Shown here: piece after piece, positions 25,430 through 44,136 of the stretch | Numbering within the stretch: position 1 is the first letter of the stretch | Layout of the letters: each line of letters opens with the position of its first letter | From: an uncultured Gammaproteobacteria bacterium | GTDB lineage: Bacteria > Patescibacteriota > Microgenomatia > CAZETR01 > Amesbacteraceae | NCBI GenBank assembly: GCA_964633995.1 | Contig: CAZWKN010000002.1 | Location: 113,119-177,118, forward strand | Length of the DNA stretch: 64,000 bases | Reading direction: 5' to 3' | Notes under the pieces: model-generated | Databases searched by the model: none | Told to the model about the DNA's origin: nothing | Seen by the model: only the letters and a program-made list of their open reading frames with translations | Program-made: the position numbers and the translations under genes

Positions 25430-25430
25430 A

Positions 25431-27017: not shown

Positions 27018-28576
27018 AGTGCAGTAATATTAAAGGCGGTTGTCCCGTCTAAAAAGAGAATTTTTCCCAAGTCCGCACCTGACTTGGGATGATCTTGACT
27101 GGAAAACACAAGCACATGTTTTCCAGACGATGCCGAAATAGATTGGATGTCCCAATCGTTGACGAATTTAAACTTGTCGAAACCATCTACCCAGTACCAA
27201 TTGGCATGATAATCCCAGGCGAAATTAGGATCTTTTAATAATTTGTCCGAACTCCATCGCAAATTCCATAGCAAAAATTCATGTGGCTCTGCGTGACGTT
27301 TGGTAATAATAATTTCATCATATTCGGAATAATGGTGTCTGACAAATTCCGCCAACTGAGAATAGCCATATTGCCAACTAGCTGAATACATTTTAGGATA
27401 TTGAGAGAAATAGTAAAAAAAATAATTTGCACTAAGTGTTAGATAAAGTATTACAGTAGAAATCAGAATAATTTTACTGTATTTGGTCGCTACGAATACT
27501 AATCCCGAAGCGGTAACTATTTGGACGATTGGCAGCATGGTAGTGGCCCGAATAACAGCATATTGATCACGAGTTATGGCGGCAGGTAAGGGAGCCAGTA
27601 AAAGCCAAGTTAATAATAATTTATCTTTTCTGAACAATAAAAGGGTTAGGCCAATGTAAAAGAAGGGCAGACTTACAATAGGTAAAACTCCAAAGTGAGG
27701 AATGCTGTACTGGTATTGGGTTCCACCTGATAAAAACAAAAACTTGGGAGAAAAGTAACCAACATAGTTGGTAAGCACCTTAGTTACTACAAATAGTGGC
27801 CTGTTATAAACCAGGCGCGACAACAAAGCTGGTAATCGAGAAGTGTTTCTTTGGTGTTCTATTTGACCGATAGCGCCGGTGTCTAAAATACCTACCCATG
27901 TGCTCCGCGCCCGAGATTGAGGAGAAAATAGAATAACAACCGCTGGAATGAAAAACAGCACAATCCACAACCAGGTCATTTTTGATCTAATAAATTTAGG
28001 TATTTGGCTTGCCATAAGCAGGGGTGAGAAAATTCTGGTGTTGTGGTAAGCATAAAGACTTAGTCCGCTAAAAAGAGCTGAAAATGAATAGTTGTTATTG
28101 AGAATGTAAACTAACCCCAAAGATGAAAGAAGTACTGACCAATTCGATTGGAAAACGGCTCTTGATGGAAAGAAAGTCCAGGGATCCATGGCCATAAATA
28201 AAGCGGATAATACGGCTATTTTCTTATTTTTGCTCCATAGATATGCGGCATGAAATACAATAAAAATACAGAGTGTACCGATAAGTGCATGTGGCAATCT
28301 AGCTGAAAAATCCGACGGACCCAATAATGCAAATACTGCGGAGGTGAAATAAAGATTTAACGGCAAGGGATAATCGCCATAAGCTCTAAAATTGCCTATC
28401 GGCAAGATTTTTCCCCACTGATCTGCTCCTGTATGCAGGAGTGAAAGTGCATTATAGGCATGACTTACTTCGTCCCAGTTTAATGCAGGAGGAAAGGATT
28501 CTAAATGGTACAACCGCAAAAAACCACCTACGGCAATTATCAGGCTTAAAACTAAAAGAGTGCGAAAGCGGTCCAT
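27014..28576 (-). CDS. GT-C fold membrane glycosyltransferase, PMT/ArnT-like; paralog 3 of 6 (tandem)
   Basis: FPPALNWDEVSHAYNALSLLHTGADQWGKILP...RLPHALIGTL. Confidence 0.65.
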   Translation of the reverse strand: MDRFRTLLVLSLIIAVGGFLRLYHLESFPPALNWDEVSHAYNALSLLHTGADQWGKILPIGNFRAYGDYPLPLNLYFTSAVFALLGPSDFSARLPHALIGTLCIFIVFHAAYLWSKNKKIAVLSALFMAMDPWTFFPSRAVFQSNWSVLLSSLGLVYILNNNYSFSALFSGLSLYAYHNTRIFSPLLMASQIPKFIRSKMTWLWIVLFFIPAVVILFSPQSRARSTWVGILDTGAIGQIEHQRNTSRLPALLSRLVYNRPLFVVTKVLTNYVGYFSPKFLFLSGGTQYQYSIPHFGVLPIVSLPFFYIGLTLLLFRKDKLLLTWLLLAPLPAAITRDQYAVIRATTMLPIVQIVTASGLVFVATKYSKIILISTVILYLTLSANYFFYYFSQYPKMYSASWQYGYSQLAEFVRHHYSEYDEIIITKRHAEPHEFLLWNLRWSSDKLLKDPNFAWDYHANWYWVDGFDKFKFVNDWDIQSISASSGKHVLVFSSQDHPKSGADLGKILFLDGTTAFNITAL

Positions 28577-30120
28577 ATGAGAACTATAAATAACCCAAAT
28601 AAACTTAGTAAATTGCCAATATGTCTTACGTCAGTGTCCTTAAATGATAGCTTAACAATGTGAACCCCGCTGGGAACTTTTAGTGAGACTAGCCCAGAAG
28701 CAGATGGCGTGATCGGGGTAGGTTTTGAATCTAGTTGAGCCGTCCAGCCGGGGAAGTAAACGACTGGCAATAACACCCGGGTTGATTCGTTGGGTACACT
28801 GACAGTAAAACTGTTGACCGAATTGCCTCGGTTGGCTACTAAAACAAACGGTGACAAAGCGGGAGCGAACTGAGTTGGAGGGTTACCAGCGATTTTTGGC
28901 CAATAATCTTTGTGGGCTGTCCTGCTTTCGTCCCAAAACCTACCTGAAAAGAATTGGTTGTCTGATAGATTAAGCCAAATGTCAGGACGAAAAAAAGAAA
29001 AATTGGTAATGATTATCAAAAGTAATAAACCGGTGATCAAGTAACGATTGGCCAACTTACTTGCCAAAGCTCCACCAGCCATAGAGATAAAAAAGATGCC
29101 TACGCCCACATACCTCCAGGGGAATTGGATGAATTTTAAAAAAGGTAACAAATTCCAAATAAAAGCTGATTTTCCATGGGCCATAAAGAGGGCCAATAGA
29201 CCTAGGAAAACAAACCCTACCGCTTTCTTGTTTCGGGTAACAATAACGGCCAGAAGTGCAACCGCCCATTGAATTTGGCCTAATGAGATACTAAGGAATT
29301 TTTTAGCCCATAGCGAGGCCCCGTAACCCCAGTATCTGGAAATAAACAATTCCTTAAGCGTGGCGAAATGAATATGATAGTCGTAATAACCCTGGGTTGT
29401 CCTGGCTAAATCAACCAGATGGCTCTCAAATATCACCGGAAAAATATAGTAGGAAGAGAGGATCACGGATACAATACCAGCAAGCATAAGTTTAAAAAAA
29501 GACCAAAATTTGTGCTGGAATACCCAATAAATTGCCAAAAAGGGTAGGAACATGATTACAGATAGATTGTGAGTGGTGATAAGTCCGGCCAGACAAAGAC
29601 TGAAGGCAATTAAGTATTTTGAATTTTTGGTCTCTAAAAATTTGTCCAAGGCTAAAAGAATCAGAGGAAAAAAAACAAAGGCGAGCGACTCAGGCAACGC
29701 AGCCCGAACCCAGACATCGGTTGACCTATATGGTGCATAGGTATAAAGCAATGCTGATACAAGTCCGCCCCAACTCCCCCAGTGGTGTTTGCCAAATAAA
29801 TACATGGCGACTCCGGAAGCTAGTAGTGAAAAGGCGAATGCAGCTTTCGTTGAATCCAAGATCGACAAACCCAACAAATGAAACATTTCTCCTAGCCAAA
29901 AACCGGTTTGGGGATAATAGTTGAAAAGGGGTTCGCCATAACCCATTTCTGCGTCTGAGGTCCAACGGCAGGGAAATTGACGTTCTTGGACACATTTATC
30001 AAACTCGAATAACCTAAAATGGGGGAAATCCTGCATGGTGTAGATACCTGACCTAAACATGAGCGAGCAGGTGGGAAGCGCGAGAAGTAAGAAGATTAGG
30101 ACCCACTTGAACCGTGCCAT
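28552..30120 (-). CDS. Polytopic membrane protein of a 'PTPS-related/YfhO-like' GT-C-type family with C-terminal beta-rich domain; paralog A of 3
   Basis: N-terminal GIYTMQDFPHF...FDKCVQERQFPCRWTSDAEMGYGEPLFNYYPQ, shared with 50642..52309 and 57570..59204. The family name is from memory of PF10131-like proteins and is not verified. Confidence 0.45.
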   Translation of the reverse strand: MARFKWVLIFLLLALPTCSLMFRSGIYTMQDFPHFRLFEFDKCVQERQFPCRWTSDAEMGYGEPLFNYYPQTGFWLGEMFHLLGLSILDSTKAAFAFSLLASGVAMYLFGKHHWGSWGGLVSALLYTYAPYRSTDVWVRAALPESLAFVFFPLILLALDKFLETKNSKYLIAFSLCLAGLITTHNLSVIMFLPFLAIYWVFQHKFWSFFKLMLAGIVSVILSSYYIFPVIFESHLVDLARTTQGYYDYHIHFATLKELFISRYWGYGASLWAKKFLSISLGQIQWAVALLAVIVTRNKKAVGFVFLGLLALFMAHGKSAFIWNLLPFLKFIQFPWRYVGVGIFFISMAGGALASKLANRYLITGLLLLIIITNFSFFRPDIWLNLSDNQFFSGRFWDESRTAHKDYWPKIAGNPPTQFAPALSPFVLVANRGNSVNSFTVSVPNESTRVLLPVVYFPGWTAQLDSKPTPITPSASGLVSLKVPSGVHIVKLSFKDTDVRHIGNLLSLFGLFIVLIWTAFALF

Positions 30121-30137
30121 AGCTCTATTATAGCTGG

Positions 30138-31751
30138 TTATGGCAGTTTGGGGAGTTTCTCAGCAACTGTTATTGTGGGTTCGCCGTTGGGAAGGTCGAT
30201 GTGAAAATAGTTTGGGAAATTCGGCGGAAACTCATCTGATTTACCCACAAACAAAGTGGGTACACGTACCTCCTCTTTGGGATGAATACTTCCAAACCTG
30301 TATTTGCCCAGGCGATAGCCGTCTAACTGATCTAGAAATTTAAGATTTTTGGCCTCAAAAACTAGCCAGGTGTTTGATGCAGCCTGATAGTCCTTGGGGG
30401 GGATTTTTTGAAAAAATGCCAAATAGATGTGTGGTTCTGACAAACCGGTACTAATTTGAACTTCTGAAAACCTGTCGGCAATATCAATAAATCTAGTAAA
30501 CGCCTGGTTTCGACCAAATAGCATGGATTGGCCTATTCTGTAAGAAGAAGTGTAAAAATACTCCTGTAAAAAAAACACGCAGGAGATGAAATAAAGAAGA
30601 CTAATAACTGGTAGATACTTTTTCTTTATAAGTGATATGCCACTGGCGGCGGCGATTGTCAAAAACGGAATCATGGACGCAGCTCTATTTGCTGCGTATC
30701 CCGGGCCTTTGGCAAGAGCAGCTGGTAAGGGGGCGACCAACAACATGGTCAGTATCAGGATGTTTGACGAATTTGGCTTTTTGATAGTAGAGATGCAGAA
30801 AAAAAGTAGAAATGGTAATTCAATTAAGTAAAGTAATCCTGTCCCAGGGAGCAATCCATATGTGCCTTCTGCGGGACCAGTTGTAAACAAAAATTGTGGA
30901 GAAAAATAAGTAAGATAGTTTTGAGTAAAAAGGCGAAAGACGTAGACTGCTTTATTGGAAAAAAATCTGGATACCGCATCGGGTAAACCTGCGTTTCTTG
31001 ACATAAATCTCATATCGCTGACGTATTGCCATTTGTCAGTAGGACTTAGTATTGAAACATCGGACACCCTGTGGACGCCTGCACCAAAATATGAGAGTAC
31101 GGCAGGAAGTGAGAGTACAGCTAAAACAATGATGAATTTAGTAAACCCAAGAAATGGTTTTTTTATATGAGCAAACGCTAAAAAGAGCAGTAGTATCGGA
31201 GTGATTAATCTAGCCGAATGATACGAATAAAGATTGATGGCAAAGACGACCCCTGACCAAATAAAAGAATTTATCAAAAATAAATAAATCCCAAGAGGAA
31301 GAAAAAAGGTGACAAGATTGGCCTCAAATGCCCCCCGCGATAGACCTATTGACCAGGGAGAAATGGCTGTTAATGCCGCAGTTATCAGGGCGGTGTTGTC
31401 GGACGTCAGTTTTTTTGACAATAAATAGACCGAGACTATGGCCAGTGTCCCAATTAGAGCATTTGGCAAACGTGTGGCAAATTCGTTTAAGCCGAACAAT
31501 TTTATTGACGGTAGACTTAGAAAGACATATAGCGGCATTTTGTAATCACCAAACGATCTTAAATTTTTATAGGGCAACCTATACCAAGGTGTCCCCCATT
31601 CGTCCATTCCTGTTTGTAAAATAGAATAAGCGTTGTAGCCAAAGGCGGCTTCATCAGGTGTAAACCCTGGTGGATTAGTTGATAGTTTGTAAACACGGAG
31701 AAATAGCCCAATGGCTACTACAAAACTAAGTATTAAAACATGACGATTCAT
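30138..31751 (-). CDS. GT-C fold membrane glycosyltransferase, PMT/ArnT-like; paralog 4 of 6
   Basis: NPPGFTPDEAAFGYNAYSILQTGMDEWGTPW...SFGDYKMPLYVF...RLPNALIGTL. Confidence 0.7.
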   Translation of the reverse strand: MNRHVLILSFVVAIGLFLRVYKLSTNPPGFTPDEAAFGYNAYSILQTGMDEWGTPWYRLPYKNLRSFGDYKMPLYVFLSLPSIKLFGLNEFATRLPNALIGTLAIVSVYLLSKKLTSDNTALITAALTAISPWSIGLSRGAFEANLVTFFLPLGIYLFLINSFIWSGVVFAINLYSYHSARLITPILLLFLAFAHIKKPFLGFTKFIIVLAVLSLPAVLSYFGAGVHRVSDVSILSPTDKWQYVSDMRFMSRNAGLPDAVSRFFSNKAVYVFRLFTQNYLTYFSPQFLFTTGPAEGTYGLLPGTGLLYLIELPFLLFFCISTIKKPNSSNILILTMLLVAPLPAALAKGPGYAANRAASMIPFLTIAAASGISLIKKKYLPVISLLYFISCVFFLQEYFYTSSYRIGQSMLFGRNQAFTRFIDIADRFSEVQISTGLSEPHIYLAFFQKIPPKDYQAASNTWLVFEAKNLKFLDQLDGYRLGKYRFGSIHPKEEVRVPTLFVGKSDEFPPNFPNYFHIDLPNGEPTITVAEKLPKLP

Positions 31752-34497: not shown

Positions 34498-36098
34498 TGG
34501 CTCTTGGTAACAAGATAAAAAATTGGTTGGTTGTAGGGGTTAGTCGAGGTGGAAAGAACTTTTACTCCTGCCGGAGGACTAGTGCGCCAATCCCAATCTC
34601 CGGCAACATCGTCTCTTTGACTAATTAAGTAAACTGCGTTGGGAAAAAGCCTAGATCCAAATTGAACATTTTTGGAGTCGTCGGAAAAATTGCCAAAAAA
34701 GTATTTTCCATCGAGCGAAAAGCCATTGTAGCCCGGTAGAATTTCGTTTTCCGGTTGATCCTTTTTGAAAATCGCCTGAAACCTTAAGGGTGAATAGCGC
34801 GTATAAAATAAAAATCTTATTAGAGAAGGCTCGTAACTATTGTTAATGATTACCCTAGAATAATCTGGCGATAATTTGGCAATATCTATCATTGCTTGTT
34901 TAAAGCCTACATGCCACCATCTCCAAGAAGTTTGCGGATAATGAACAAGGTAATAGTGTGCTCCCGACAAAAAGTTGATACTCAAAAGAACAAGTGTGGA
35001 GAGGAATAGTAACTTGGTTTTTTTTAGATAAAGTAACCCAGAGCCCAAAATGACTGCCAACGGAATGGTCATTAAAAATGATCTGGTTGCATGCCAACTA
35101 CCGTCAATTGTTAAAGCGGCGGGAATAGGGGCTAGCAACAACCAAAATATCCACATAAATTCACGTTTTTTGAACAGGTATATCAATCCTAAAAGTAGTA
35201 GGGGTGAGGTCAGGGGTAATAATTCACCAAAATATTGCATATTGTGGCGAACTGTTGGGTCGCCCCTAACAAAAAGAAATTCGGTAGAAAAACTACGTAA
35301 ATAATTCGTTAAAAACCGCAGAGAAATAGTTTCAACTTTGTTGTGAAACAGGCGCTCAAGTAGGGAGTTGTCGCCATTTCGAAGCGAAAGCACTGTGTCA
35401 GTCAATTCACGACTTTGTAGAATGCTGAGTGTTTGAAATCTCTCGGTCGCTTTGCCAAAGACAATACTAGTCAAAAAGGGGGCTGTTAAAATTAACAATA
35501 ACGCAATCGAAACAAATTGAGGACGAACTTTTTTGTAAAGATGAAGACCTAGAATTAGTAGTGGGGTGAATACTGTGGCAGTGCTATAGGTATAAAAGGT
35601 AAGGGCGAACAGAACGGTCGAAAGGAGAAATTTTCGCCGAATGAACATTACAACTGCGGCCAGAGTGAGATAGGCTAGGATTACAACCTCAAACGCGGCG
35701 CGTGAATAGTGAATATGCCATGGCATAAATGCAATAAACGCTGCGGAATATAACGCAAGGGATTTAGACCTTGATACGAGGTAGACTAGACCAAACAACA
35801 ACACAGGGGTAAGCGAACCAAACACAACCTCTGGTAACCTGACTCCCCATTCCGTGTTACCAAATATTAAAATAGACGGCACGGTGGCATAAATAAGCAA
35901 AGGAGCTCGCCATTCCGCCAAGGAATGGATATAGACCGGAAGTGGTTGCCCGTAAAAATCTTTTCCAGTCTTAAGTAATGAGTATGCCTGGTATCCTACA
36001 TCTATCTCGTCGCCAAAAAGTTCCGGAGGCGAATGGGTGAGCATTCCACCCCTTAAAATACTCGAAATAATCAGGATTACTGACAACAATAAGGGCAT
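34494..36098 (-). CDS. GT-C fold membrane glycosyltransferase, PMT/ArnT-like; paralog 5 of 6
   Basis: HSPPELFGDEIDVGYQAYSLLKTGKDFYGQPLPV...RLPEVVFGSL. Confidence 0.7.
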   Translation of the reverse strand: MPLLLSVILIISSILRGGMLTHSPPELFGDEIDVGYQAYSLLKTGKDFYGQPLPVYIHSLAEWRAPLLIYATVPSILIFGNTEWGVRLPEVVFGSLTPVLLFGLVYLVSRSKSLALYSAAFIAFMPWHIHYSRAAFEVVILAYLTLAAVVMFIRRKFLLSTVLFALTFYTYSTATVFTPLLILGLHLYKKVRPQFVSIALLLILTAPFLTSIVFGKATERFQTLSILQSRELTDTVLSLRNGDNSLLERLFHNKVETISLRFLTNYLRSFSTEFLFVRGDPTVRHNMQYFGELLPLTSPLLLLGLIYLFKKREFMWIFWLLLAPIPAALTIDGSWHATRSFLMTIPLAVILGSGLLYLKKTKLLFLSTLVLLSINFLSGAHYYLVHYPQTSWRWWHVGFKQAMIDIAKLSPDYSRVIINNSYEPSLIRFLFYTRYSPLRFQAIFKKDQPENEILPGYNGFSLDGKYFFGNFSDDSKNVQFGSRLFPNAVYLISQRDDVAGDWDWRTSPPAGVKVLSTSTNPYNQPIFYLVTKSQ

Positions 36099-36117
36099 TT
36101 CTGATATTATACATTTA

Positions 36118-36993
36118 ATGTTGTCGGTAATAATAATCTCTTACAATACCAAGGATGTTACGTTGGAGTGTTTGAGCAGGCTAAATAAATCTAAAGGGGT
36201 CAAGTATGAAACTATTGTGGTAGACAACGCCTCTACCGATGGGTCTGCTCAAGCTATTCTGAAGACTTTTCCGGATGTTAAATTAGTTGAAAGTAAAGTA
36301 AATTTGGGATTTGCTGGCGGAAATAATTTGGGAATGAAAATGGCCAAAGGGGAAAAGTTGATACTACTGAATTCAGATTGTTTCGTAAACCCGGACACTT
36401 TAGCCAATTTACCTGACTTAGACGTGGTCGGGTGCAAACTACTAAATAAGGATGGTTCGGTTCAACAATCTTGGGGCTATTTTCCAACGCTTAGAAGGAT
36501 TACCCAAATGATGTTTTTTGTCGATAATTTTCCTATTATCCGCAAGTTCATCGATTCGATTCACGTAAGAGATGTGTCCAGGTACCAGACGCAACATGAG
36601 GTCGACTGGGTTACAGGGGCGTTTGTAATGGTAAGAAGGATTATCTTTGAAACGGTGGGGGGTATTGATGAAAAGTATTTTATGTATGGAGAAGAAATGG
36701 AGTGGATGTATAGAATAAAAAAAGCTGGTTTTAAGATTTGGTATTCTCCGGAACCCCTGGCTACACACTTGTTAGGCGCTAGTTCGTCAAACCGAGCACC
36801 TGCTGTCGTTGGGGAAATTAAGGGATGGATGTATTGGTTTGCAAAACACAACCCGGTTTGGCAACAGAAACTCCTGCCTTTGGTAATTTTGATTGGATGT
36901 TTGCTTAGAGTTGTGCTTAAGCCAGCTATGTCGAAGTATTATTTGCAAACAATTTCCGAAATTTTTGCCCCGTCCAGGAAACGAGTGCCATAA
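36118..36993 (+). CDS. GT2 family glycosyltransferase
   Basis: MLSVIIISYNTKDVT...TIVVDNASTDGS...LILLNSDCFV. The track ORF starts at 36037; the internal start at 36118 avoids overlap with 34494..36098. Confidence 0.8.
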   Translation: MLSVIIISYNTKDVTLECLSRLNKSKGVKYETIVVDNASTDGSAQAILKTFPDVKLVESKVNLGFAGGNNLGMKMAKGEKLILLNSDCFVNPDTLANLPDLDVVGCKLLNKDGSVQQSWGYFPTLRRITQMMFFVDNFPIIRKFIDSIHVRDVSRYQTQHEVDWVTGAFVMVRRIIFETVGGIDEKYFMYGEEMEWMYRIKKAGFKIWYSPEPLATHLLGASSSNRAPAVVGEIKGWMYWFAKHNPVWQQKLLPLVILIGCLLRVVLKPAMSKYYLQTISEIFAPSRKRVP

Positions 36994-37783
36994 CGACCGA
37001 TTTTCCCCAGCCGTTATACCAAATTCCGGCTTCAGTACGATATCTTTCGGATGATGATGAGGTGTTGGGAATATTCAACATTTTTCTAATTGGATATATT
37101 AATGTTTCGATTAGATTTCGATATTTTTGGTTTTGGATTTGTTTCGAACTTTGGCCGTGTTCATGGACGATAGTTACATCACTATCAAAATATACTTTCA
37201 AGCCAGCTGCGCGGATTCGCCGGCAATAGTCCAAATCTTCGTAGTACATAAACACTTTTTCGGTAAATAAACCAATCTTGGTTAATGTGGACTTTGGAAA
37301 AAACATACATGCTCCTGAAACCGCATTTACCTCAGACGTAAGATTTGGTGTATATTTCGGAGTGTTTGTCAAAATTCTAGGTTCCAAAAAAACCGAACCC
37401 TGGGGATTTCCGTTTGGATCGACAAATTTGGGTCCCATGACACCCATGTCCAAATGGCGCCGGGTAAATTCTAAGGCTTTTGAAAAAAAATCTTTAGGAA
37501 TTTGCGTGTCGGGGTTGAGAAGCAAAATATAATCACCCGTCGCCTTCTTCAGACCTTGGTTTACGGCTCGAGGGAAACCTAAATTTTTGCTATTTGCAAC
37601 GATCGGTGCGATTTGCAAATCCTTGGCGACCTGGACTGAGTTGTCTGATGAGGCGTTATCGATGACTATAGTTTCAAGATTTGGATATTTGGTGGCAAGA
37701 ATTGATTGTAAACAACGCTTGAGAGAGTTTGCCACGTTCCAGCTGACAATAATTACACTAATTTTAGAAATTGATTTTTTCAC
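36926..37783 (-). CDS. GT2 family glycosyltransferase (GTG start)
   Basis: VKKSISKISVIIVSWNVANSL...TIVIDNASSDNS...ILLLNPDTQI. Its 3' end overlaps the convergent GT2 36118..36993 by 68 nt. Confidence 0.8.
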   Translation of the reverse strand: MKKSISKISVIIVSWNVANSLKRCLQSILATKYPNLETIVIDNASSDNSVQVAKDLQIAPIVANSKNLGFPRAVNQGLKKATGDYILLLNPDTQIPKDFFSKALEFTRRHLDMGVMGPKFVDPNGNPQGSVFLEPRILTNTPKYTPNLTSEVNAVSGACMFFPKSTLTKIGLFTEKVFMYYEDLDYCRRIRAAGLKVYFDSDVTIVHEHGQSSKQIQNQKYRNLIETLIYPIRKMLNIPNTSSSSERYRTEAGIWYNGWGKSVVMALVSWTGQKFRKLFANNTST

Positions 37784-39465
37784 AAATTTAGCAACTCCCT
37801 TTTTACAATAAAGCTTCCTATAATGAGAATGTCTACGCTTCCTCTGAGGAGATGTTCTATTGCTTGGGACGGAGATCTAACAATCGGGAGTCCATGTTCG
37901 TTGAAACTCGTGTTTAAAACCAGTGGTACCTTTTTTATTTTGTAAAATTCGGATATCAATTCCCAATATAAAGGATTGAATTCTTTTTTGACAGTTTGTG
38001 GTCGAATTGAACTATCGACATGTACCGCTGATGGAATTAGTTTTTTCTTATCGTTTTTACAATCAAAAGATATTATCATGAAGGGGGCATCGGAAGAATT
38101 TACCAGATATTCTTCTTTATATTCATCAAGAATAGATGAAGCATAAGGAATAAACCAATCCCTTTTCTTTAAAATTAAATTAACCCTTTCTACACTCTTT
38201 GGGTTAGTTGGATCTGCTAAAACCGATCTGTTGCCTAACGCTCTTGGCCCGTATTCCATTTTTCCCTGAAACCAACCTACAATGTTCCCTTCGGAAATCA
38301 ATTTGGCTGCCTCGAATGCCACGTTATCCGACTTTTCGTAATTTAACTTATAACTTTCAAGAGCCTGCTCTATTTCAAGATCTGAATATTCTGTTCCTAG
38401 ATAAACATGCTCTAATTTTTTGGGTGTCCAAACGTTTCCCCTTGCCTTTGTTAACTGTTGACAAACTTCCAAAGCGGCACCAACGGCTAATCCTCCATCA
38501 CCGGCATTGGGGTGAATGTATAAATTTTGAACCTCTTGTAATTCTCTTATTTTTTTATTTAACTTAACATTAAAAAAAATTCCGCCACCTAAACAAATGT
38601 TGTGTATCCCTGTTTTTTTAATGTGGTTTTTAACTAGTGATGTTGCAATGTTTTCGAGAAGAAGTTGTCCAGACGCAGCGATGTCTCTTTTGCCGAATTT
38701 TGAGATATACGAATTAAATATTTCTGCATTTGTAAGGTGTGCATTTCTATAAAATGAATAAAGAACGTCTTTTGAAGTTTCGATTTTATTTTGCAAATTG
38801 AAGTTGTATTTAAATGTGATGCTCGATTTTTCTTTAGAATATTTAATTATTTTATAAAACTCTTTGTCGTTTATGGGGTGTCCGTACGCAGCTAAAGCCA
38901 TTGTTTTGCCTTCCCCCTCCCACGGAGAGAAACCTAAGCTTTCTGTCAAGGCGCTGTAGAATGATCCTAGAGAATTTTTCTTGTCTTCGAAAGCTAACTT
39001 TTGTACAAGTTTATAATTTTCACCTTTCCATACACTCATGCTTTCGTGATCACCGTATCCATCAAGACATAAAATCAGAGATTTTGACATTCCTGAAGTG
39101 TAAAACGTCGCAGATGCATGTGAAAGGTGATGGTTGACAAAGAAAATTGGTTTATTTACAACGAATGGTTCTATAAATCGTTCAATGAATTCTTGTCTCC
39201 AGGGGTATTCGCTTTCAGTCCCCAGTTTGAATGGTTCGTGACTTGATTTCTTGCTTGGAATTGCTATCGCGTCAATAATACTAGGACTTATTTTTGTAAT
39301 TCGGAAAACTTCTCTAACTGAATTCCAGGGAGGTGAGCTGTCATGTTTTGTTCCAGTCATTCTTTCTTCGTTTACGGCTGCTAGTATTTCGCCATCTCTG
39401 ACTAGCGAGGCACCCGAATCGTGATTTCCCGTTTCTGAATGTGTATGGATTCCAAGAATAAGCAT
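37780..39465 (-). CDS. Carbamoyltransferase, NodU/CmcH/NovN family (O-carbamoylation of a sugar)
   Basis: MLILGIHTHSETGNHDSGASLVRDGEILAAVNEERMTGTKHD, the characteristic N-terminus of the NodU/HypF-like carbamoyltransferase family; ~560 aa as expected. Confidence 0.85.
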   Translation of the reverse strand: MLILGIHTHSETGNHDSGASLVRDGEILAAVNEERMTGTKHDSSPPWNSVREVFRITKISPSIIDAIAIPSKKSSHEPFKLGTESEYPWRQEFIERFIEPFVVNKPIFFVNHHLSHASATFYTSGMSKSLILCLDGYGDHESMSVWKGENYKLVQKLAFEDKKNSLGSFYSALTESLGFSPWEGEGKTMALAAYGHPINDKEFYKIIKYSKEKSSITFKYNFNLQNKIETSKDVLYSFYRNAHLTNAEIFNSYISKFGKRDIAASGQLLLENIATSLVKNHIKKTGIHNICLGGGIFFNVKLNKKIRELQEVQNLYIHPNAGDGGLAVGAALEVCQQLTKARGNVWTPKKLEHVYLGTEYSDLEIEQALESYKLNYEKSDNVAFEAAKLISEGNIVGWFQGKMEYGPRALGNRSVLADPTNPKSVERVNLILKKRDWFIPYASSILDEYKEEYLVNSSDAPFMIISFDCKNDKKKLIPSAVHVDSSIRPQTVKKEFNPLYWELISEFYKIKKVPLVLNTSFNEHGLPIVRSPSQAIEHLLRGSVDILIIGSFIVKRELLNL

Positions 39466-39535
39466 ATACTTCTATAAATTAATGATTCTAGGATACGAAA
39501 ATCGAGGACTACCCCTTGATGGTCGGATTAGATTC

Positions 39536-39567
39536 CAGCTAACAATTATTACACTAATTTTGTCCAT
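39536..39567 (-). pseudogene. About 30-nt remnant of a GT2 gene 5' end (could encode MDKISVIIVSWN) lying across the stop codon of GT2 39549..40328 and the spacer upstream of the carbamoyltransferase
   Basis: The minus-strand sequence AAAATTAGTGTAATAATTGTTAGCTGGAAT matches, with about 3 mismatches, the N-terminal coding sequence (KISVIIVSWN) of GT2 36926..37783 at 37741..37770. Confidence 0.45.
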
Positions 39568-40328
39568 ATGGCCCAAAGAGTGGGTAAAAGATAACCGGGG
39601 TGATGAAAGATCCTGGATCCTAGATGATAGATGTGAGAAAAATAATATTTAGATTCCAAGTTGTTCCAATGGGCAAGTAAATAATTTCTGTCTTTGGTTA
39701 ATTGAAGAGATTTTCTAGAAAACGTTTTGTTGAACGTCGATTCAGGAGTCGCGTGGGTAACTTTTGCCTTTGGGTCCCAGATTATCTCGTATCCTTTATT
39801 TCTGGCACGCCAACTGATATCTAGATCTTCATAATACCCGGGAGAAAAACGAGAATCGAAGCCACCAAGCTGATCCCATTGTGATTTACGAAAAGCGGCA
39901 CTGCCACCGGACGCCCAAAATGAAGAATGTAGCTTATCGTCTATCGGGCCATTATAAAATTCCAGAAAACCATTTTTAATCTCGGCCTTTGCCCAAGAAC
40001 GGCCCTGTTCGTTGAAAGTGACGGCAAAAACTTTAGGATCGGAAAAATGAGGTAAAACAAATTTGAGTAGGTTTCTATCTGGGTTAACATCTTGATTTAG
40101 CAGAATAATAATTTCACCAGAAGCTGCCGCAAAACCATCGTTAACTGATATGGGAAAACCCTTGTTGGATTTATGACGAATTATTTTAATGTTTGACGCG
40201 GTTACAGGATCACGTGATGCATCATCTACGACAATTATTTCATCGGCTCCCAAATTCCGAACTGAAGCTAAATTGGAGTCTAAAAACTGTTGCCCGTTGT
40301 AGGCTGGTATAACAACTGAGGTGGTCAC
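39549..40328 (-). CDS. GT2 family glycosyltransferase
   Basis: TSVVIPAYNGQQFL...IIVVDDASRD...IILLNQDVNP. Confidence 0.8.
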   Translation of the reverse strand: MTTSVVIPAYNGQQFLDSNLASVRNLGADEIIVVDDASRDPVTASNIKIIRHKSNKGFPISVNDGFAAASGEIIILLNQDVNPDRNLLKFVLPHFSDPKVFAVTFNEQGRSWAKAEIKNGFLEFYNGPIDDKLHSSFWASGGSAAFRKSQWDQLGGFDSRFSPGYYEDLDISWRARNKGYEIIWDPKAKVTHATPESTFNKTFSRKSLQLTKDRNYLLAHWNNLESKYYFSHIYHLGSRIFHHPGYLLPTLWAIWTKLV

Positions 40329-41497
40329 AGAAGCATTCCAATAAATAATGACAGGCCAGAAGCTGCCAACAAACTTCTGGCAAGCGAGGCAAGCTGATCG
40401 GGTGGATAGTGTGGAGCAATAAACCCGGAAAGAGAAAAGGTGCTGCCGAATAGTCCAAAGTTTAGGGATGGTTCAAACAGGAGTATTAACAACAAACATG
40501 CTAGTAAAAAAATCGCAATCGGAAGCCTGGATTGATGTTTGTATACCCACGCTAAAACTAATGTGGGCGAGGACCAAGTAAGCCATTGAGGGTGAAAATG
40601 AGTTACAGAATAAAAAAGCATGGGAACGGCAAGAAACCACCCCCAGATATCAATAACTTTGGGTTTAACAAAATTTAGAAAATATATCAAAAATAAGCCC
40701 ATGAAAAATAAAGAAAGGTATTGAGATCCAGACACCGGGATTTTGGCAAAAAGCAATTTATCAGACTGACTAGCCAGTAGGGCGTAGTGTTTAAAGGCGG
40801 GAGATGCTAAGTATGGCAACAAGGTTAGCAAATAAACTGATAAGCCGGTGAGAATATTTTTGATTTTTGACCCAGGTAGCAACGGGAGTAATAAAAGGGT
40901 AAAAGGTTTGAAACCTGCACTTAAAGCCACGCTGGCCGCAGCCAATAGCTGATTTTTTTTTGAAAAATAAAGAGCGATTAGGATAAACAAAGCCACGAAG
41001 ATGTCAAACTGGCCAACCATATAAGATGTATACACGTTGATAGGGTTAAACAGCCACACTAGGGAGCCCAACAGCCGTTTTTCGGGGTTGAGAATTTTTC
41101 TTAATACGAAAAGACAAAGCCCATCGGCTATTAAATAGGGCAGTTTGAGCAGGAATAATAATAGTGGTAAATTCGGATTGCCAACAACTTTACCTATATC
41201 GTCTAGCAGGATCATGAAGAGCGGTTTGGGGTATAGTGGATAAAGTAGCTTATTAAATAATCCGTGGGTTAGATAAGCGACGGGTGGGTAAATAAACAAA
41301 TCGTCTCCATAAAGTTTTACCCAGGTATGATTGCGGGGCAATTTACTAATATGATCGTAGAAAGTAAAAATCTCGCCTTTTTGAGCTATTAGAAAACCGG
41401 CCAAATTGACTGCTCTAAAGTCCGGGTGGATGGTTGTAACCATCAGAACAAGGCGTAGTACTAAACCGGCAATTAACCATGGAACCAGTTTTTTCAT
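40325..41497 (-). CDS. Polytopic membrane protein, GT-C-like (DUF2029/GT87-like)
   Basis: WLFNPINVYTSYMVGQFDIFVALFILIAL...GFKPFTLLLLPLL. Confidence 0.55.
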   Translation of the reverse strand: MKKLVPWLIAGLVLRLVLMVTTIHPDFRAVNLAGFLIAQKGEIFTFYDHISKLPRNHTWVKLYGDDLFIYPPVAYLTHGLFNKLLYPLYPKPLFMILLDDIGKVVGNPNLPLLLFLLKLPYLIADGLCLFVLRKILNPEKRLLGSLVWLFNPINVYTSYMVGQFDIFVALFILIALYFSKKNQLLAAASVALSAGFKPFTLLLLPLLPGSKIKNILTGLSVYLLTLLPYLASPAFKHYALLASQSDKLLFAKIPVSGSQYLSLFFMGLFLIYFLNFVKPKVIDIWGWFLAVPMLFYSVTHFHPQWLTWSSPTLVLAWVYKHQSRLPIAIFLLACLLLILLFEPSLNFGLFGSTFSLSGFIAPHYPPDQLASLARSLLAASGLSLFIGMLL

Positions 41498-42525
41498 AAC
41501 AATCTCTCTAGGGTGGCATTAAATACGTTTGTATCAAATAGTTTACTCTTTTTGATTGCCGACTGAGATAGGGCATCAACTTTAGAGGCATGTCGTGAAA
41601 GCTCTAGTGTGAGCCTCTCAAGTTGTTTTGGATCATCCCAGAGATAGCCATTAAGGTCGTTATCCACTATTTCCCTGTGCCCACCGAGATTGGTAATTAA
41701 TGGAACAGCACCAGCAGCCATGGCCTCAACAACGGTGATCCCAAAATGTTCCTGTTTGAGAAGATTTTCCTGGTCCGCCATAAACCCACTTGCTGACCAG
41801 TAAAACTTTCCTCGTCCACACAGGTTTGTTATCTCTGTAAAAGATGGGTTGAAGAGAAATTCTATTGGTAATCCCTTAGCCTGGTCAGTTAGGGTGTGTA
41901 TGGCTTTCTCGGTTGTCCCGACCCCGACTCCACCTGCCAAAACTAATTTCCACCCAGGAAGTTTTTTTGAGATACGGGCGAATGAGCTGATTAGTGTGGC
42001 GTGACCTTTTTGTTGAGTTAAGTTTGAAAATCTACCAATATAAAAAATTAAGTTGTCTTTATGTTTTGGAACAAACGCCTGTGTGTCTACGGGAGGATAA
42101 AGAATATGACTATGTATTTTGAACTCTTTATCAATAGCAAGTTTTGTAAAATCGGAATTGACAACAAAGACATAGAGTTTTGCCTTTAGTTGGTTGATAA
42201 AGCTTTTACCACCAATGTCCTTGAAAGGAAATTGAAAATGAATGATAGTTTTTTTGGAAAAAGAGGTCGGTAGACTTCCATCAGAGACCCAAAATACCAA
42301 ATCGAAACCCAAAGTACTTTGGATTTTGCCAAACCTAGCTTGAGAAATATCAATACCAAATCTGGTTTGAATTTCCGGGGAAACATTTTCCGGCCAGTTG
42401 ACACTTACCTGATGACCCTGGTCCAGAAAATATCTAATAGCCGCCGATACATAGCGTTCACCTCCACCAAACGTATTCCAGTAAGGATTAAATACTGCTA
42501 TTTTTTTCATATCTGAGCCTCCCAA
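41494..42525 (-). CDS. GT4 family glycosyltransferase
   Basis: YIGRFSNLTQQKG...LVLAGGVG...GITVVEAMAAGAVPLITNLGGHREIV. Confidence 0.8.
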   Translation of the reverse strand: MGGSDMKKIAVFNPYWNTFGGGERYVSAAIRYFLDQGHQVSVNWPENVSPEIQTRFGIDISQARFGKIQSTLGFDLVFWVSDGSLPTSFSKKTIIHFQFPFKDIGGKSFINQLKAKLYVFVVNSDFTKLAIDKEFKIHSHILYPPVDTQAFVPKHKDNLIFYIGRFSNLTQQKGHATLISSFARISKKLPGWKLVLAGGVGVGTTEKAIHTLTDQAKGLPIEFLFNPSFTEITNLCGRGKFYWSASGFMADQENLLKQEHFGITVVEAMAAGAVPLITNLGGHREIVDNDLNGYLWDDPKQLERLTLELSRHASKVDALSQSAIKKSKLFDTNVFNATLERLL

Positions 42526-43244
42526 ACTCTGGCATATATTATAAATGTATTAAAGACTTGAAATAGGCCGTCAATTACACCTTCTACACCATCTCTAGCT
42601 GCCTGAAATTTAATAAAACGTATCCAAAATTCTGTGGCCATCACCCTAATAAACCTCCACCAAACAATTGGCGGGTGTTTGGATTTAAGCCGAAGTTGTG
42701 ACTCATAACCAGTATAGAGAAGTGTTTTGTCTACCATCGTTGATAAATCTCGGTGGGAAAAGTGGACCATCTGATGCGAAAGAGTTGACAGTTCACAGTT
42801 GAATTCTGGCTGTTCATGCAGGTCTCCACGGTAACCTATTAGACAGGTCCGCTGGAATAAGCGGATTACTTTATCATTACCCCAACCACCAAAATGCATA
42901 AACCTACCTAGATAATTATTCAGGCGGGGAATTTCATACACCCCTTTGTGTTTTGTTTTTACAATTTCTATAATTTCATTTTTTAGCTTAGGGGTAATAC
43001 GTTCATCGGCGTCGACAAAGAGAATCCAATCACCCTGCGCTGCTTTTAGGCCATCATTTCTGAACTTAGAATAAGTTGTACCATGAGATGTAACTATTCT
43101 GGCTCCGAATTTTTTGGCAATGACGTTAGTAAGATCAGTATTTCCCGTATCTACTACGACCACCTCATCGGCAAATTCGACTGATTCCAGACAACCCCCA
43201 AGCATTGTTTGTTCGTTTTTGGTTATGATGACGACACTAAGCAT
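42507..43244 (-). CDS. GT2 glycosyltransferase, WaaE/KdtX-like subfamily
   Basis: Probable start M15: MLSVVIITKNEQTMLGGCLESVEFADEVVVVDTGNTDLTNVIAKKFGARIV...FVDADERI. Confidence 0.8.
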   Translation of the reverse strand: MLSVVIITKNEQTMLGGCLESVEFADEVVVVDTGNTDLTNVIAKKFGARIVTSHGTTYSKFRNDGLKAAQGDWILFVDADERITPKLKNEIIEIVKTKHKGVYEIPRLNNYLGRFMHFGGWGNDKVIRLFQRTCLIGYRGDLHEQPEFNCELSTLSHQMVHFSHRDLSTMVDKTLLYTGYESQLRLKSKHPPIVWWRFIRVMATEFWIRFIKFQAARDGVEGVIDGLFQVFNTFIIYARVWEAQI

Positions 43245-44136
43245 ACGAGCCCTTACCCAGATTGTTAAAATAGTAGTCCAAAACACCTTTTTTCTGCCAT
43301 TTTCTTCCGTTTATGAGCTGCCAAATCGACTGACGGATTAAGGCAATTTTTGTACGAAATGGCGCATGACTGATTCCAAACATCAGCCGATTTCTGGTTA
43401 TGTAGTAATCCTGGAGATCTGACCCAATGCCGGTTGCTTGAGCGTTGGCGTGCCAGGCAACACTCTTATATGAGTACATCAGATCGAAACCAAATTTTCT
43501 GGCTCTCTGGCACAAATCGTTTTCTTCGAAATACAAAAAATATTTCGAATTCAATAAGCCTACTTTGTCAAATACTTCACTTCTTATAAACATGGAAGCC
43601 CCGGTTATAAAATCAGACTTGGCATCTTTGTCGAATTGTCCATGGTCTACTTGGTCTACTCCTATATGTTCAGACGCGACGTTTTTCCAATCAATACGAC
43701 CTCCTGCAAACCAAATTACCCTGCCCAAATCTGATTTTTGATATTTATCCTTGTGAAATTCATAGCCGGATTTGAAATATATTTTCGACCCAAAAATACC
43801 AGCGTGTGGATATGTTTTTGCAGCAACAACTAGGGAAATAAGGGCGTTTGGATCTAATTCAATGTCTGGATTTACTATCCAAAAAAAATCAGGGCGATTT
43901 TTCTGACCTTCACGGATACCAATATTATTGCCCTCTGCGTATCCATAATTTTTGGAGTTACGAATGATTTTAACTGGGAATTTGGAAATTAGGCTCAAAG
44001 AGTTATCGGAGGAATTATTGTCTACGACAATGATTTCTAGTTGGTGAGATGATTTTTTTAGTTTGACGAGAGACTCTAAACATCTGGAAATATAGCCTTC
44101 ACCATTCCAATTAAGCACGATTACTGCAATTTTCAT
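43237..44136 (-). CDS. GT2 family glycosyltransferase
   Basis: MKIAVIVLNWNGEGYISRCLESL...IIVVDNNSSDNS. Confidence 0.8.
   Translation of the reverse strand: MKIAVIVLNWNGEGYISRCLESLVKLKKSSHQLEIIVVDNNSSDNSLSLISKFPVKIIRNSKNYGYAEGNNIGIREGQKNRPDFFWIVNPDIELDPNALISLVVAAKTYPHAGIFGSKIYFKSGYEFHKDKYQKSDLGRVIWFAGGRIDWKNVASEHIGVDQVDHGQFDKDAKSDFITGASMFIRSEVFDKVGLLNSKYFLYFEENDLCQRARKFGFDLMYSYKSVAWHANAQATGIGSDLQDYYITRNRLMFGISHAPFRTKIALIRQSIWQLINGRKWQKKGVLDYYFNNLGKGSYA

What the first reader, a model, noticed from the sequence alone, without database searches (positions are those of the whole stretch)
39466..39567. About 30-nt remnant of a GT2 gene start duplicated upstream of the carbamoyltransferase
The minus-strand sequence AAAATTAGTGTAATAATTGTTAGCTGGAAT at 39536..39565 (across the TAA stop of GT2 39549..40328) nearly matches AAAATTAGTGTAATTATTGTCAGCTGGAAC. 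The second sequence encodes KISVIIVSWN at the N-terminus of GT2 36926..37783. The copy retains an ATG (39567) and could encode MDKISVIIVSWN before going out of frame. This looks like a recombination scar. It implies a GT2 gene once started here, or that gene-cassette shuffling between GT2 paralogs has occurred in this locus.
Basis: seen in the sequence. Interest (0 to 1): 0.6.

Follow-up and report, generated by a model that had tools for sequence, protein, structure and literature searches.

The report
Orphaned gene start left by insertion
The 30-base repeat is the stranded original start of a glycosyltransferase gene, left behind when a foreign carbamoyltransferase gene was inserted between two overlapping genes of a sugar-chain operon in an uncultured Microgenomates bacterium; this is a clear but ordinary insertion scar.

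Summary
The repeat is real. It is 27/30 identical, 0 matches are expected by chance, and all 3 differences are synonymous. It lies 4 nt from the stated position: copy 1 is 39532..39561 and copy 2 is 37736..37765, both on the minus strand. The copies flank the carbamoyltransferase (CBT) gene, 1796 nt apart.

In at least 15 related Microgenomates/Amesbacteria loci, a full-length GT2 gene ("GT2-B") starts at exactly this position. Its ATG lies 19-25 nt inside the 3' end of the upstream GT2 ("GT2-A"). The four closest relatives all show the 19-nt overlap that the window's relic ATG (39567) still has.

In the window, homology to those orthologs stops after codon 12 and resumes 1.8 kb downstream at the present GT2-B (36926..37783). 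The block in between is a 66-nt leader, CBT, and 14 nt that supply a new GTG start. No relative has this block. CBT is the strongest compositional outlier in the window, and its nearest known homolog is only 47% identical.

"Shuffling between GT2 paralogs" is not: copy 2 is the same gene, displaced downstream. Only the relic's first 19 nt still have a job, encoding the GT2-A C-terminus and stop. A role as a relay uORF for CBT is possible but untested. This is an ordinary kind of event, clearly documented here.

The parts
39549..40328 (-). GT2-A, an intact family-2 glycosyltransferase of 259 aa. Its last 6 codons and TAA stop (39549..39567) are encoded by the relic start region of GT2-B.
   Evidence: Pfam PF00535 at 2.2e-19. 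Orthologs are 70-81% identical and the four closest have the same 259-aa length. The C-terminus ...LWAIWTKLV* aligns with orthologs.
39532..39567 (-). Relic start of GT2-B: the ATG plus 11 more codons (MDKISVIIVSWN). It occupies the ancestral position, overlapping GT2-A by 19 nt.
   Evidence: In alignment A2 it matches orthologous junctions through column 69: 23-30/39 upstream and 22-27/30 in the 30-mer. After that it falls to background, 7-17/40. The 19-nt overlap is identical to that in L007, L016, L041, L045, L047 and L048.
39532..39561 (-). Direct-repeat copy 1, the 30-mer of the finding with corrected coordinates.
39472..39567 (-). Dead-end ORF of 31 codons plus a TAG stop, headed by the relic start. 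It is in the same frame as CBT and ends 6 nt before the CBT ATG.
   Evidence: 29 codons downstream of the motif, against 240-280 in every ortholog.
39466..39531 (-). 66-nt leader of unknown origin. It is the left end of the inserted block.
   Evidence: It has no significant similarity to any related locus or to the rest of the window. It has no promoter or terminator consensus, no stable fold (z = 0.38) and no Rfam family.
37780..39465 (-). Inserted carbamoyltransferase gene (NodU/CmcH type, 561 aa).
   Evidence: Pfam PF02543 plus PF16861. It is absent from every related locus. Its best homolog among 5.8 billion proteins is 47% identical. It has the lowest GC (0.367) and GC3 (0.313) in the cluster, and its tetranucleotide deviation ranks 1 of 147 windows.
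37766..37783 (-). New 5' end of GT2-B: a GTG start overlapping the CBT stop (GTGA) plus 5 extra codons (KKSIS). It is the right end of the inserted block.
   Evidence: there is no homology to orthologs upstream of column 40 (7-13/39).
37736..37765 (-). Direct-repeat copy 2, which forms codons 7-16 of the functional GT2-B.
36926..37783 (-). GT2-B, an intact family-2 glycosyltransferase of 285 aa. It is the gene that formerly started at 39567.
   Evidence: Pfam PF00535 at 1.5e-27. It is orthologous to the gene that directly follows GT2-A in relatives: 52-63% identity over the full length and 61-68% over the first 160 aa.

Best explanation
The 30-mer, together with the ATG at 39567, is the orphaned original start of the GT2 gene that now begins 1.8 kb downstream (GT2-B, 36926..37783).

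Shown:
- In the ancestral arrangement, kept in at least 15 related Microgenomates/Amesbacteria loci, GT2-B's ATG lies 19-25 nt inside the 3' end of GT2-A.
- In this lineage a block of about 1.77 kb sits after codon 12 of GT2-B. It consists of a 66-nt leader, a compositionally foreign carbamoyltransferase gene, and 14 nt that supply a new GTG start.
- Codons 3-12 of GT2-B are present on both sides of that block.

Inferred:
- Because GT2-A and GT2-B overlapped, an insertion between them could keep both genes intact only if the junction ended up present twice. One copy finishes GT2-A and the other starts GT2-B. Selection therefore retained an event with this duplication.
- The event was either an illegitimate insertion with a 30-nt target duplication, or a one-sided homologous join (homology-facilitated illegitimate recombination, or a Campbell-type crossover on the conserved 30-mer).
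- Today only the first 19 nt of the relic are functional, encoding the last six codons and stop of GT2-A. The remaining 17 nt and the 31-codon ORF they head are most likely a non-functional leftover that has not yet decayed.
For: 1. Position and sequence homology. Alignment A2, quantified, shows two half-junctions. The relic side matches 12 orthologous junctions upstream of and through the 30-mer, then drops to background. The GT2-B side does the reverse.
2. The four closest relatives (GT2-A 74-81% identical: L041, L045/46, L047, L048) all have a GT2-B ORF starting with the same 19-nt overlap.
3. The motif occurs once per locus in 20 other distinct loci (25 fetched loci, some of them duplicate copies). 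It heads a 240-280-codon ORF there, apart from L041 (cut by the contig end) and L023 (interrupted). Only the window and its identical copy L001 have two copies, one of which heads a 29-codon dead end.
4. CBT is absent from all related loci. Its nearest homolog is 47% identical, against 81% for GT2-A and 62% for GT2-B. It is the strongest compositional outlier of 147 windows.
5. This is the only gap in an otherwise tightly overlapping operon: 83 nt, against 4-50 nt overlaps elsewhere.
6. The same slot holds other accessory genes in other lineages, so it is a recurrent insertion point: VTT/DedA, C39-like peptidase, methyltransferase, PMT_2 plus GT2, YfhO-like, and unknowns.
Against: - Only one genome carries the arrangement, and L001 is the same organism. 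The event therefore cannot be dated or polarised with a sister lineage.
- No donor was found for CBT or for the 66-nt leader.
- The 30-mer is so conserved across species (mean 24.7/30) that the two window copies could be an in-situ duplication or the starts of two different alleles. The insertion mechanism is therefore unresolved.
- The relic has no nonsynonymous change, indel or stop in its 12 codons, and its ORF ends just before the CBT start. This is compatible with a recent event but also with retained function.
Confidence: 0.9

Rival explanations
1. Cassette replacement. CBT and the present GT2-B arrived together from a related donor in which they were already translationally coupled (GTGA). 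They were joined by homologous recombination inside or downstream of GT2-B and by an illegitimate join after codon 12 of the native gene. On this reading the relic is all that remains of the native GT2-B, and the present GT2-B is partly or wholly a xenolog.
For: - The new GTG start overlaps the CBT stop and adds a 5-codon extension. Other lineages with an insert in this slot show similar N-terminal extensions on GT2-B (L002 MSKEP-, L004 MPDSTPL-).
- All 3 differences between the copies are synonymous, as expected for two alleles that diverged while both were coding.
- GT2-B is less similar to the L041/L002/L042 group (64-68%) than those are to each other (84-85%).
Against: - The apparent discordance disappears when other cluster genes are compared. 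Window versus L002 is 53-64% for the neighbouring GT genes, while L002 versus L042/L004 is 65-84%. GT2-B at 59% therefore fits vertical descent.
- GT2-B has native-like GC and GC3 (0.399 / 0.392), whereas CBT does not.
- No donor with a CBT-GT2-B pair was found.
Confidence: 0.25
2. Exapted relay uORF. The relic start is still translated, as it was in the ancestor by coupling to GT2-A. Its 31-codon ORF carries ribosomes across the 83-nt gap and releases them 6 nt before the CBT ATG, so CBT is translationally coupled to the operon.
For: - The ATG and its upstream context are intact and identical in geometry to functional orthologous starts.
- The ORF stays open for 19 codons of non-homologous sequence and ends 6 nt before the CBT ATG.
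- CBT has no Shine-Dalgarno motif, and the operon otherwise relies on overlapping stop/start pairs.
Against: - Most genes in the window lack Shine-Dalgarno motifs whether or not they are coupled, so the missing motif says little.
- By my own rough estimate, not a tool result, an ORF staying open for 19 codons in DNA of this G+C content (CBT region 37%, window 40%) has a chance probability of roughly 0.3, so the geometry is only weakly surprising.
- There is no conservation test, because no second genome has the arrangement.
Confidence: 0.15
3. Intragenomic exchange between GT2 paralogs. The 30-mer was copied by gene conversion or ectopic recombination from one of the many GT2 genes of the window into a spacer that never held a gene start.
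For: The window holds at least 8 GT2-family genes. Their N-terminal beta-strand motif is similar at the protein level.
Against: - No other GT2 gene in the window carries the motif, even at the degenerate codon level with up to 3 substitutions.
- The relic lies at the exact orthologous position of the GT2-B start. It shares with orthologs the ATG, codon 2 and the 19-nt overlap, all of which lie outside the repeat and are absent from copy 2.
Confidence: 0.02
4. Target-site duplication of a transposable element, or an att-type site of an integrating element that carried CBT.
For: The direct repeats flank the insert exactly, with 1796-nt spacing.
Against: - From general knowledge, 30 nt is far longer than typical IS or transposon target duplications (2-14 bp).
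- The insert contains only the CBT ORF, with no transposase or integrase.
- There are no terminal inverted repeats at 39531/37766.
- No tRNA or known RNA was detected in the stretch scanned with Rfam, 39300..39750.
Confidence: 0.03

Closest known systems
Homology-facilitated illegitimate recombination (HFIR) products. HFIR is described in PMC3240628. It is invoked for displaced 'orphan' genes in Vibrio cholerae T6SS clusters and for Rhs/CDI loci in PMC5361080.
   Same: Foreign DNA has been inserted into a conserved operon. On one side the junction lies in a conserved, homologous stretch. On the other side it is an abrupt non-homologous join, and a stranded piece of the resident gene is left next to the newcomer.
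   Different: What is orphaned here is only a 36-nt 5' stub, not a whole immunity gene or a 3' toxin tip. No donor is known, so the one-sided homologous join is inferred rather than shown.
Glycosyltransferase gene remnants and mosaic structure in polysaccharide loci (O-antigen and capsule clusters). This comparison is from general knowledge and was not checked here.
   Same: It is a glycan-synthesis operon with a conserved backbone of glycosyltransferase genes. It has a variable slot where tailoring genes (here an O-carbamoyltransferase-type enzyme) come and go, leaving gene fragments.
   Different: The host is an uncultured CPR/Patescibacteria (Microgenomates) genome. The scar is forced by a 19-nt gene overlap, and no IS elements flank the slot.
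Transposon or IS target-site duplications
   Same: Direct repeats immediately flank the inserted DNA.
   Different: The repeat is 30 nt and already 10% diverged. The insert has no transposase and no terminal inverted repeats.
Upstream ORFs that couple translation by termination and reinitiation in polycistronic operons
   Same: A short ORF starts inside the preceding gene and stops 6 nt before the next start codon.
   Different: Its origin as a gene relic is demonstrated. Any coupling function is untested.

Membership tests
Insertion scar / 5' gene remnant | The sequence is homologous to the 5' end of an intact gene. | tested here: met
   27/30 identity to the window's GT2-B and 22-27/30 to 12 orthologous GT2-B starts.
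Insertion scar / 5' gene remnant | The remnant lies where the complete gene starts in related genomes. | tested here: met
   At least 15 loci have a GT2-B ORF that starts with a 19-25 nt overlap on GT2-A, full-length wherever the contig holds the whole gene. The window's relic has the 19-nt overlap.
Insertion scar / 5' gene remnant | Homology ends abruptly and the reading frame dead-ends. | tested here: met
   Identity falls to 7-17/40 after column 69. The ORF ends after 31 codons, against 240-286 in complete orthologs.
Insertion scar / 5' gene remnant | The intervening DNA is absent from relatives and looks foreign. | tested here: met
   There is no CBT in any related locus. The best homolog is 47% identical. 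Its tetranucleotide deviation ranks 1 of 147 windows.
Transposon/IS insertion with target-site duplication | A transposase or integrase, and terminal inverted repeats, within the insert. | tested here: not met
   The only ORF of any length in the insert is CBT. No inverted repeats lie at the insert ends.
Homology-facilitated illegitimate recombination product | A donor molecule shares the anchor sequence on one side only, and there is microhomology at the illegitimate joint. | not testable with these tools
   No donor sequence exists in the collections searched.
Conserved non-coding leader / regulatory RNA | The element is conserved as non-coding sequence upstream of the regulated gene in relatives, or matches a known RNA family or a stable structure. 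| tested here: not met
   In relatives the 30-mer is always a coding start. Rfam matches are all far below gathering scores. The fold z-score is 0.38.
Translational-coupling uORF | The short ORF is translated, and expression of the downstream gene depends on it. | not testable with these tools
   Only the geometry is known: the start lies inside GT2-A and the stop lies 6 nt before the CBT ATG.
GT2 glycosyltransferases (flanking genes) and NodU/CmcH carbamoyltransferases (insert) | Pfam domain matches above the gathering threshold. | tested here: met
   PF00535 scores 70-97 bits for both GT2 genes. PF02543 scores 164 bits and PF16861 scores 205 bits for CBT.

The most novel reading that the evidence does not exclude
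The unusually conserved 5' 30-mer of GT2-B averages 82% DNA identity across species, against about 56% in the next 40 nt. It might be more than a coding constraint: it could act as the recombination anchor that lets different tailoring genes be swapped into the GT2-A/GT2-B slot across Microgenomates. Genes found in that slot include carbamoyltransferase, methyltransferase, DedA/VTT and a C39-like peptidase. On this reading the window has preserved the one case where the exchange left its footprint, and the stranded start may now serve as a relay uORF for the newcomer.
Probability: 0.1. Interest if true: 0.45.

Novelty: new member of a known kind. Interest (0 to 1): 0.25.

Why it matters
The scar gives a base-pair-resolved record of how a tightly overlapping operon in a reduced CPR genome accepted a horizontally acquired glycan-tailoring gene without losing either neighbour. 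It also marks the GT2-A/GT2-B junction as a recurrent insertion slot in Microgenomates surface-glycan clusters.

For annotation, the 31-codon ORF should not be called a gene. The GTG at 37783 is the real GT2-B start.

Beyond that it is an ordinary evolutionary footprint, not a new mechanism.

Tried and rejected
1. Exact-protein look-ups. GT2-A returned only the same organism (L001, 100% identical), which says nothing about evolution. The GT2-B look-up found nothing on record.
2. A single-protein scan of genome contigs found nothing. It was repeated with alignment A1, which worked.
3. I tested the idea that GT2-B is a xenolog that arrived with CBT, because its identity to the L041/L002/L042 group is lower than the identity within that group. 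I rejected this as unsupported. Gene-by-gene comparison shows that the whole window cluster is about 53-69% identical to those loci, and that GT2-A is simply the slowest-evolving gene.
4. I searched for the origin of the 66-nt leader in all loci and in the window and found only chance-level hits.
5. I looked for a donor of CBT. The best hit was 47% identity, in unrelated lineages.
6. I looked for scars in the other lineages that have inserts in the slot (L002, L004, L020-L022, L038, L042) and found none.
7. Promoter/terminator scan, RNA folding and Rfam on the scar found nothing above background.
8. A Shine-Dalgarno survey, meant to judge whether CBT depends on coupling, was uninformative because most genes in the window lack such motifs.

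Full report
**Observation.** On the minus strand the window reads ...TTTGGGCCAT ATG GAC AAA ATT AGT GTA ATA ATT GTT AGC TGG AAT CTA ATC.... The 30-mer AAAATTAGTGTAATAATTGTTAGCTGGAAT is at 39532..39561, 4 nt lower than the finding states. Its partner AAAATTAGTGTAATTATTGTCAGCTGGAAC is at 37736..37765.
- Identity is 27/30. No other site in the 64 kb matches with up to 3 mismatches, and none of 100 shuffles produced a match.
- The three differences are all synonymous third-position changes.
- The ATG at 39567 and the TAA stop of the upstream GT2 (39551..39549, inside the repeat) are as described.
- The relic ORF reads MDKISVIIVSWNLIRPSRGSPRFSYPRIINL* and ends at 39472, 6 nt before the carbamoyltransferase ATG at 39465.
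- The two copies are direct repeats 1796 nt apart that bracket the carbamoyltransferase gene.
- The longest exact run they share is 14 nt, so an assembler could not have created the junction by collapsing a repeat. A second assembly of the same organism is identical.

**Gene content.** Pfam identifies 39549..40328 as a GT2 (called GT2-A here), 37780..39465 as a NodU/CmcH-type carbamoyltransferase (CBT; PF02543 plus PF16861), and 36926..37783 as a GT2 (GT2-B). All three sit in a long minus-strand operon of glycosyltransferases (GT2 x3, GT1, a 390-aa unknown, GT2-A, CBT, GT2-B), followed by a convergent GT2 and PMT-like membrane proteins. Neighbouring genes overlap by 4-50 nt. The 83-nt gap before CBT is the only gap in this run. 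Named homologs place the organism in the CPR/Patescibacteria, in the Microgenomates/Amesbacteria group.

**Related loci.** GT2-A homologs were traced to their contigs, to GTDB species genomes and to JGI metagenomes. The gene order around GT2-A is conserved.
- In L006, L007, L010, L011, L013, L014, L016, L018, L019, L024 and L026, and in the four closest relatives L041, L045/L046, L047 and L048 (GT2-A 74-81% identical), GT2-B follows directly. Its ATG lies 19-25 nt inside the GT2-A 3' end.
- The closest relatives have the 19-nt overlap that the window's relic ATG still has.
- A degenerate search for the motif finds it once per locus. It heads a 240-280-codon ORF in each, apart from L041 (cut by the contig end) and L023 (interrupted). 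Only the window and its twin L001 have two copies, one of which heads a 29-codon dead end.

**Breakpoints.** Alignment A2, quantified, shows two complementary half-junctions.

| Segment | Relic side vs orthologs | Present GT2-B side vs orthologs |
|---|---|---|
| Last 39 nt before the repeat | 23-30/39 | 7-13/39 |
| The 30-mer | 22-27/30 | 20-28/30 |
| Next 40 nt | 7-17/40 | 16-28/40 |

Relative to the ancestral arrangement, the window therefore carries an insertion after codon 12 of GT2-B. The inserted block is 39531..37766 (1766 nt): a 66-nt leader, the CBT ORF, and 14 nt that with the CBT stop create a GTGA-coupled GTG start and a KKSIS extension. A second copy of codons 3-12 follows it.

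**Foreignness of the insert.**
- CBT is absent from every related locus.
- Its nearest homolog among 5.8 billion proteins is 47% identical, from unrelated lineages, against 81% for GT2-A and 62% for GT2-B.
- It has the lowest GC and GC3 in the cluster. It is the most deviant of 147 sliding windows in tetranucleotide composition, about 3 sd from the mean.
- The 66-nt leader matches nothing.

**Why a duplication.** This part is inference. GT2-A's stop lies 19 nt inside GT2-B. Any insertion between the two genes that keeps both functional must leave the junction present twice. The upstream copy supplies GT2-A's last six codons and stop, and is still under selection. The downstream copy supplies the nucleotide-binding first beta-strand of GT2-B. 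The remaining 17 nt of the relic are a leftover.

How the insertion happened is unresolved. I considered three routes:
- an illegitimate insertion with a 30-nt target duplication;
- homology-facilitated illegitimate recombination, the mechanism defined in PMC3240628 and used to explain displaced orphan genes in PMC5361080;
- a single crossover on the conserved 30-mer.

The 30-mer is very conserved between species (mean 24.7/30). The relic is as close to L041 and L016 (27/30) as to the window's own copy, so the repeat identity cannot tell an in-situ duplication from a meeting of two alleles.

**A lead that failed.** GT2-B looked too divergent from the L041/L002/L042 group (64-68% against 84-85% within that group), which suggested it had arrived with CBT. 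Comparing all cluster genes showed that the window is 53-69% identical to those loci throughout, and that GT2-A is simply the most conserved gene. GT2-B also has native composition. Co-transfer is therefore not required. I keep it as a rival at modest probability because of the pre-formed GTGA coupling and the purely synonymous differences.

**Present-day function.** No promoter or terminator consensus, stable RNA fold or Rfam family lies in the scar. The relic ORF could still be translated and could deliver ribosomes to the CBT start. The geometry fits, but chance could produce it, and most genes here lack Shine-Dalgarno motifs anyway. This remains an untested possibility.

**Context.** The same slot holds different accessory genes in other lineages:
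- VTT/DedA (L002, L042);
- a C39-like peptidase (L038);
- a 168-aa unknown (L004);
- a methyltransferase (L022);
- PMT_2 plus GT2 on the opposite strand (L020);
- a 405-aa unknown (L021);
- a YfhO-like protein (L015).

None of these left a scar. The junction is a recurrent insertion point for tailoring genes, and the window is the one case found with the footprint preserved.

**Verdict.** The reading 'a GT2 gene once started here; recombination scar' is supported. 'Paralog shuffling' is not. This is a well-resolved example of a known kind of event, and of modest interest.

Noticed in passing
Slot between the GT2-A and GT2-B orthologs: L002 8774-9400, L042 6838-7479, L038 4832-5428, L004 8774-9280, L022 5854-6612, L020 5848-7787, L021 5870-7087, L015 6465-8528: The slot holds a different accessory gene in each lineage, or nothing at all. 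Contents seen are VTT/DedA, a C39-like peptidase, a 168-aa unknown, a methyltransferase, PMT_2 plus GT2 on the opposite strand, a 405-aa unknown, and a YfhO-like protein. It behaves as a hot spot for glycan-tailoring genes.
   Followed up: partly
window 37780..39465: The carbamoyltransferase is the strongest compositional outlier in the 64 kb. Its GC3 is 0.313, and its tetranucleotide distance ranks 1 of 147 windows. It has no homolog above 47% identity.
   Followed up: yes
window 39465..39567 (-): The relic ATG is in the same reading frame as the carbamoyltransferase ATG, 102 nt downstream. The two are separated only by TAG 39474..39472 and two codons.
   Followed up: no
L002 8774-8790 (also L003, L008): The start of the inserted VTT/DedA gene (ATGAAAAAATTCGTG) loosely resembles the ancestral GT2-B start (ATGGAAAAAATTAGCGT). 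The incoming gene may have captured that start, or the likeness may be chance.
   Followed up: no
window 36926..36993: GT2-B (minus strand) and the convergent GT2 at 36037..36993 (plus strand) overlap at their 3' ends by 68 nt. A similar convergent overlap of about 62 nt occurs in L002 and L007.
   Followed up: no
window 23816..31751 (-): There are five tandem paralogs of about 520-540 aa. Three match PMT_2, one matches YfhO/PTPS_related, and one has no Pfam hit. They form part of a run of about 35 genes on one strand.
   Followed up: partly
window, all gene starts: Only about 10 of 53 predicted genes have a Shine-Dalgarno-like motif upstream. Many starts overlap the preceding stop, which suggests translation here depends largely on coupling or on initiation without such a motif.
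   Followed up: partly
L023 5791-6557: The GT2-B ortholog in Amesbacteria GW2011_GWA1_47_20 is split after about 135 codons. The tblastn match comes in two pieces. This is a possible frameshift, pseudogene or assembly error.
   Followed up: no
window 42507..42525: A second 19-nt same-strand overlap occurs in the operon, between GT2 42507..43286 and GT1 41494..42525. It depends on a TTG start call, which was not verified.
   Followed up: no
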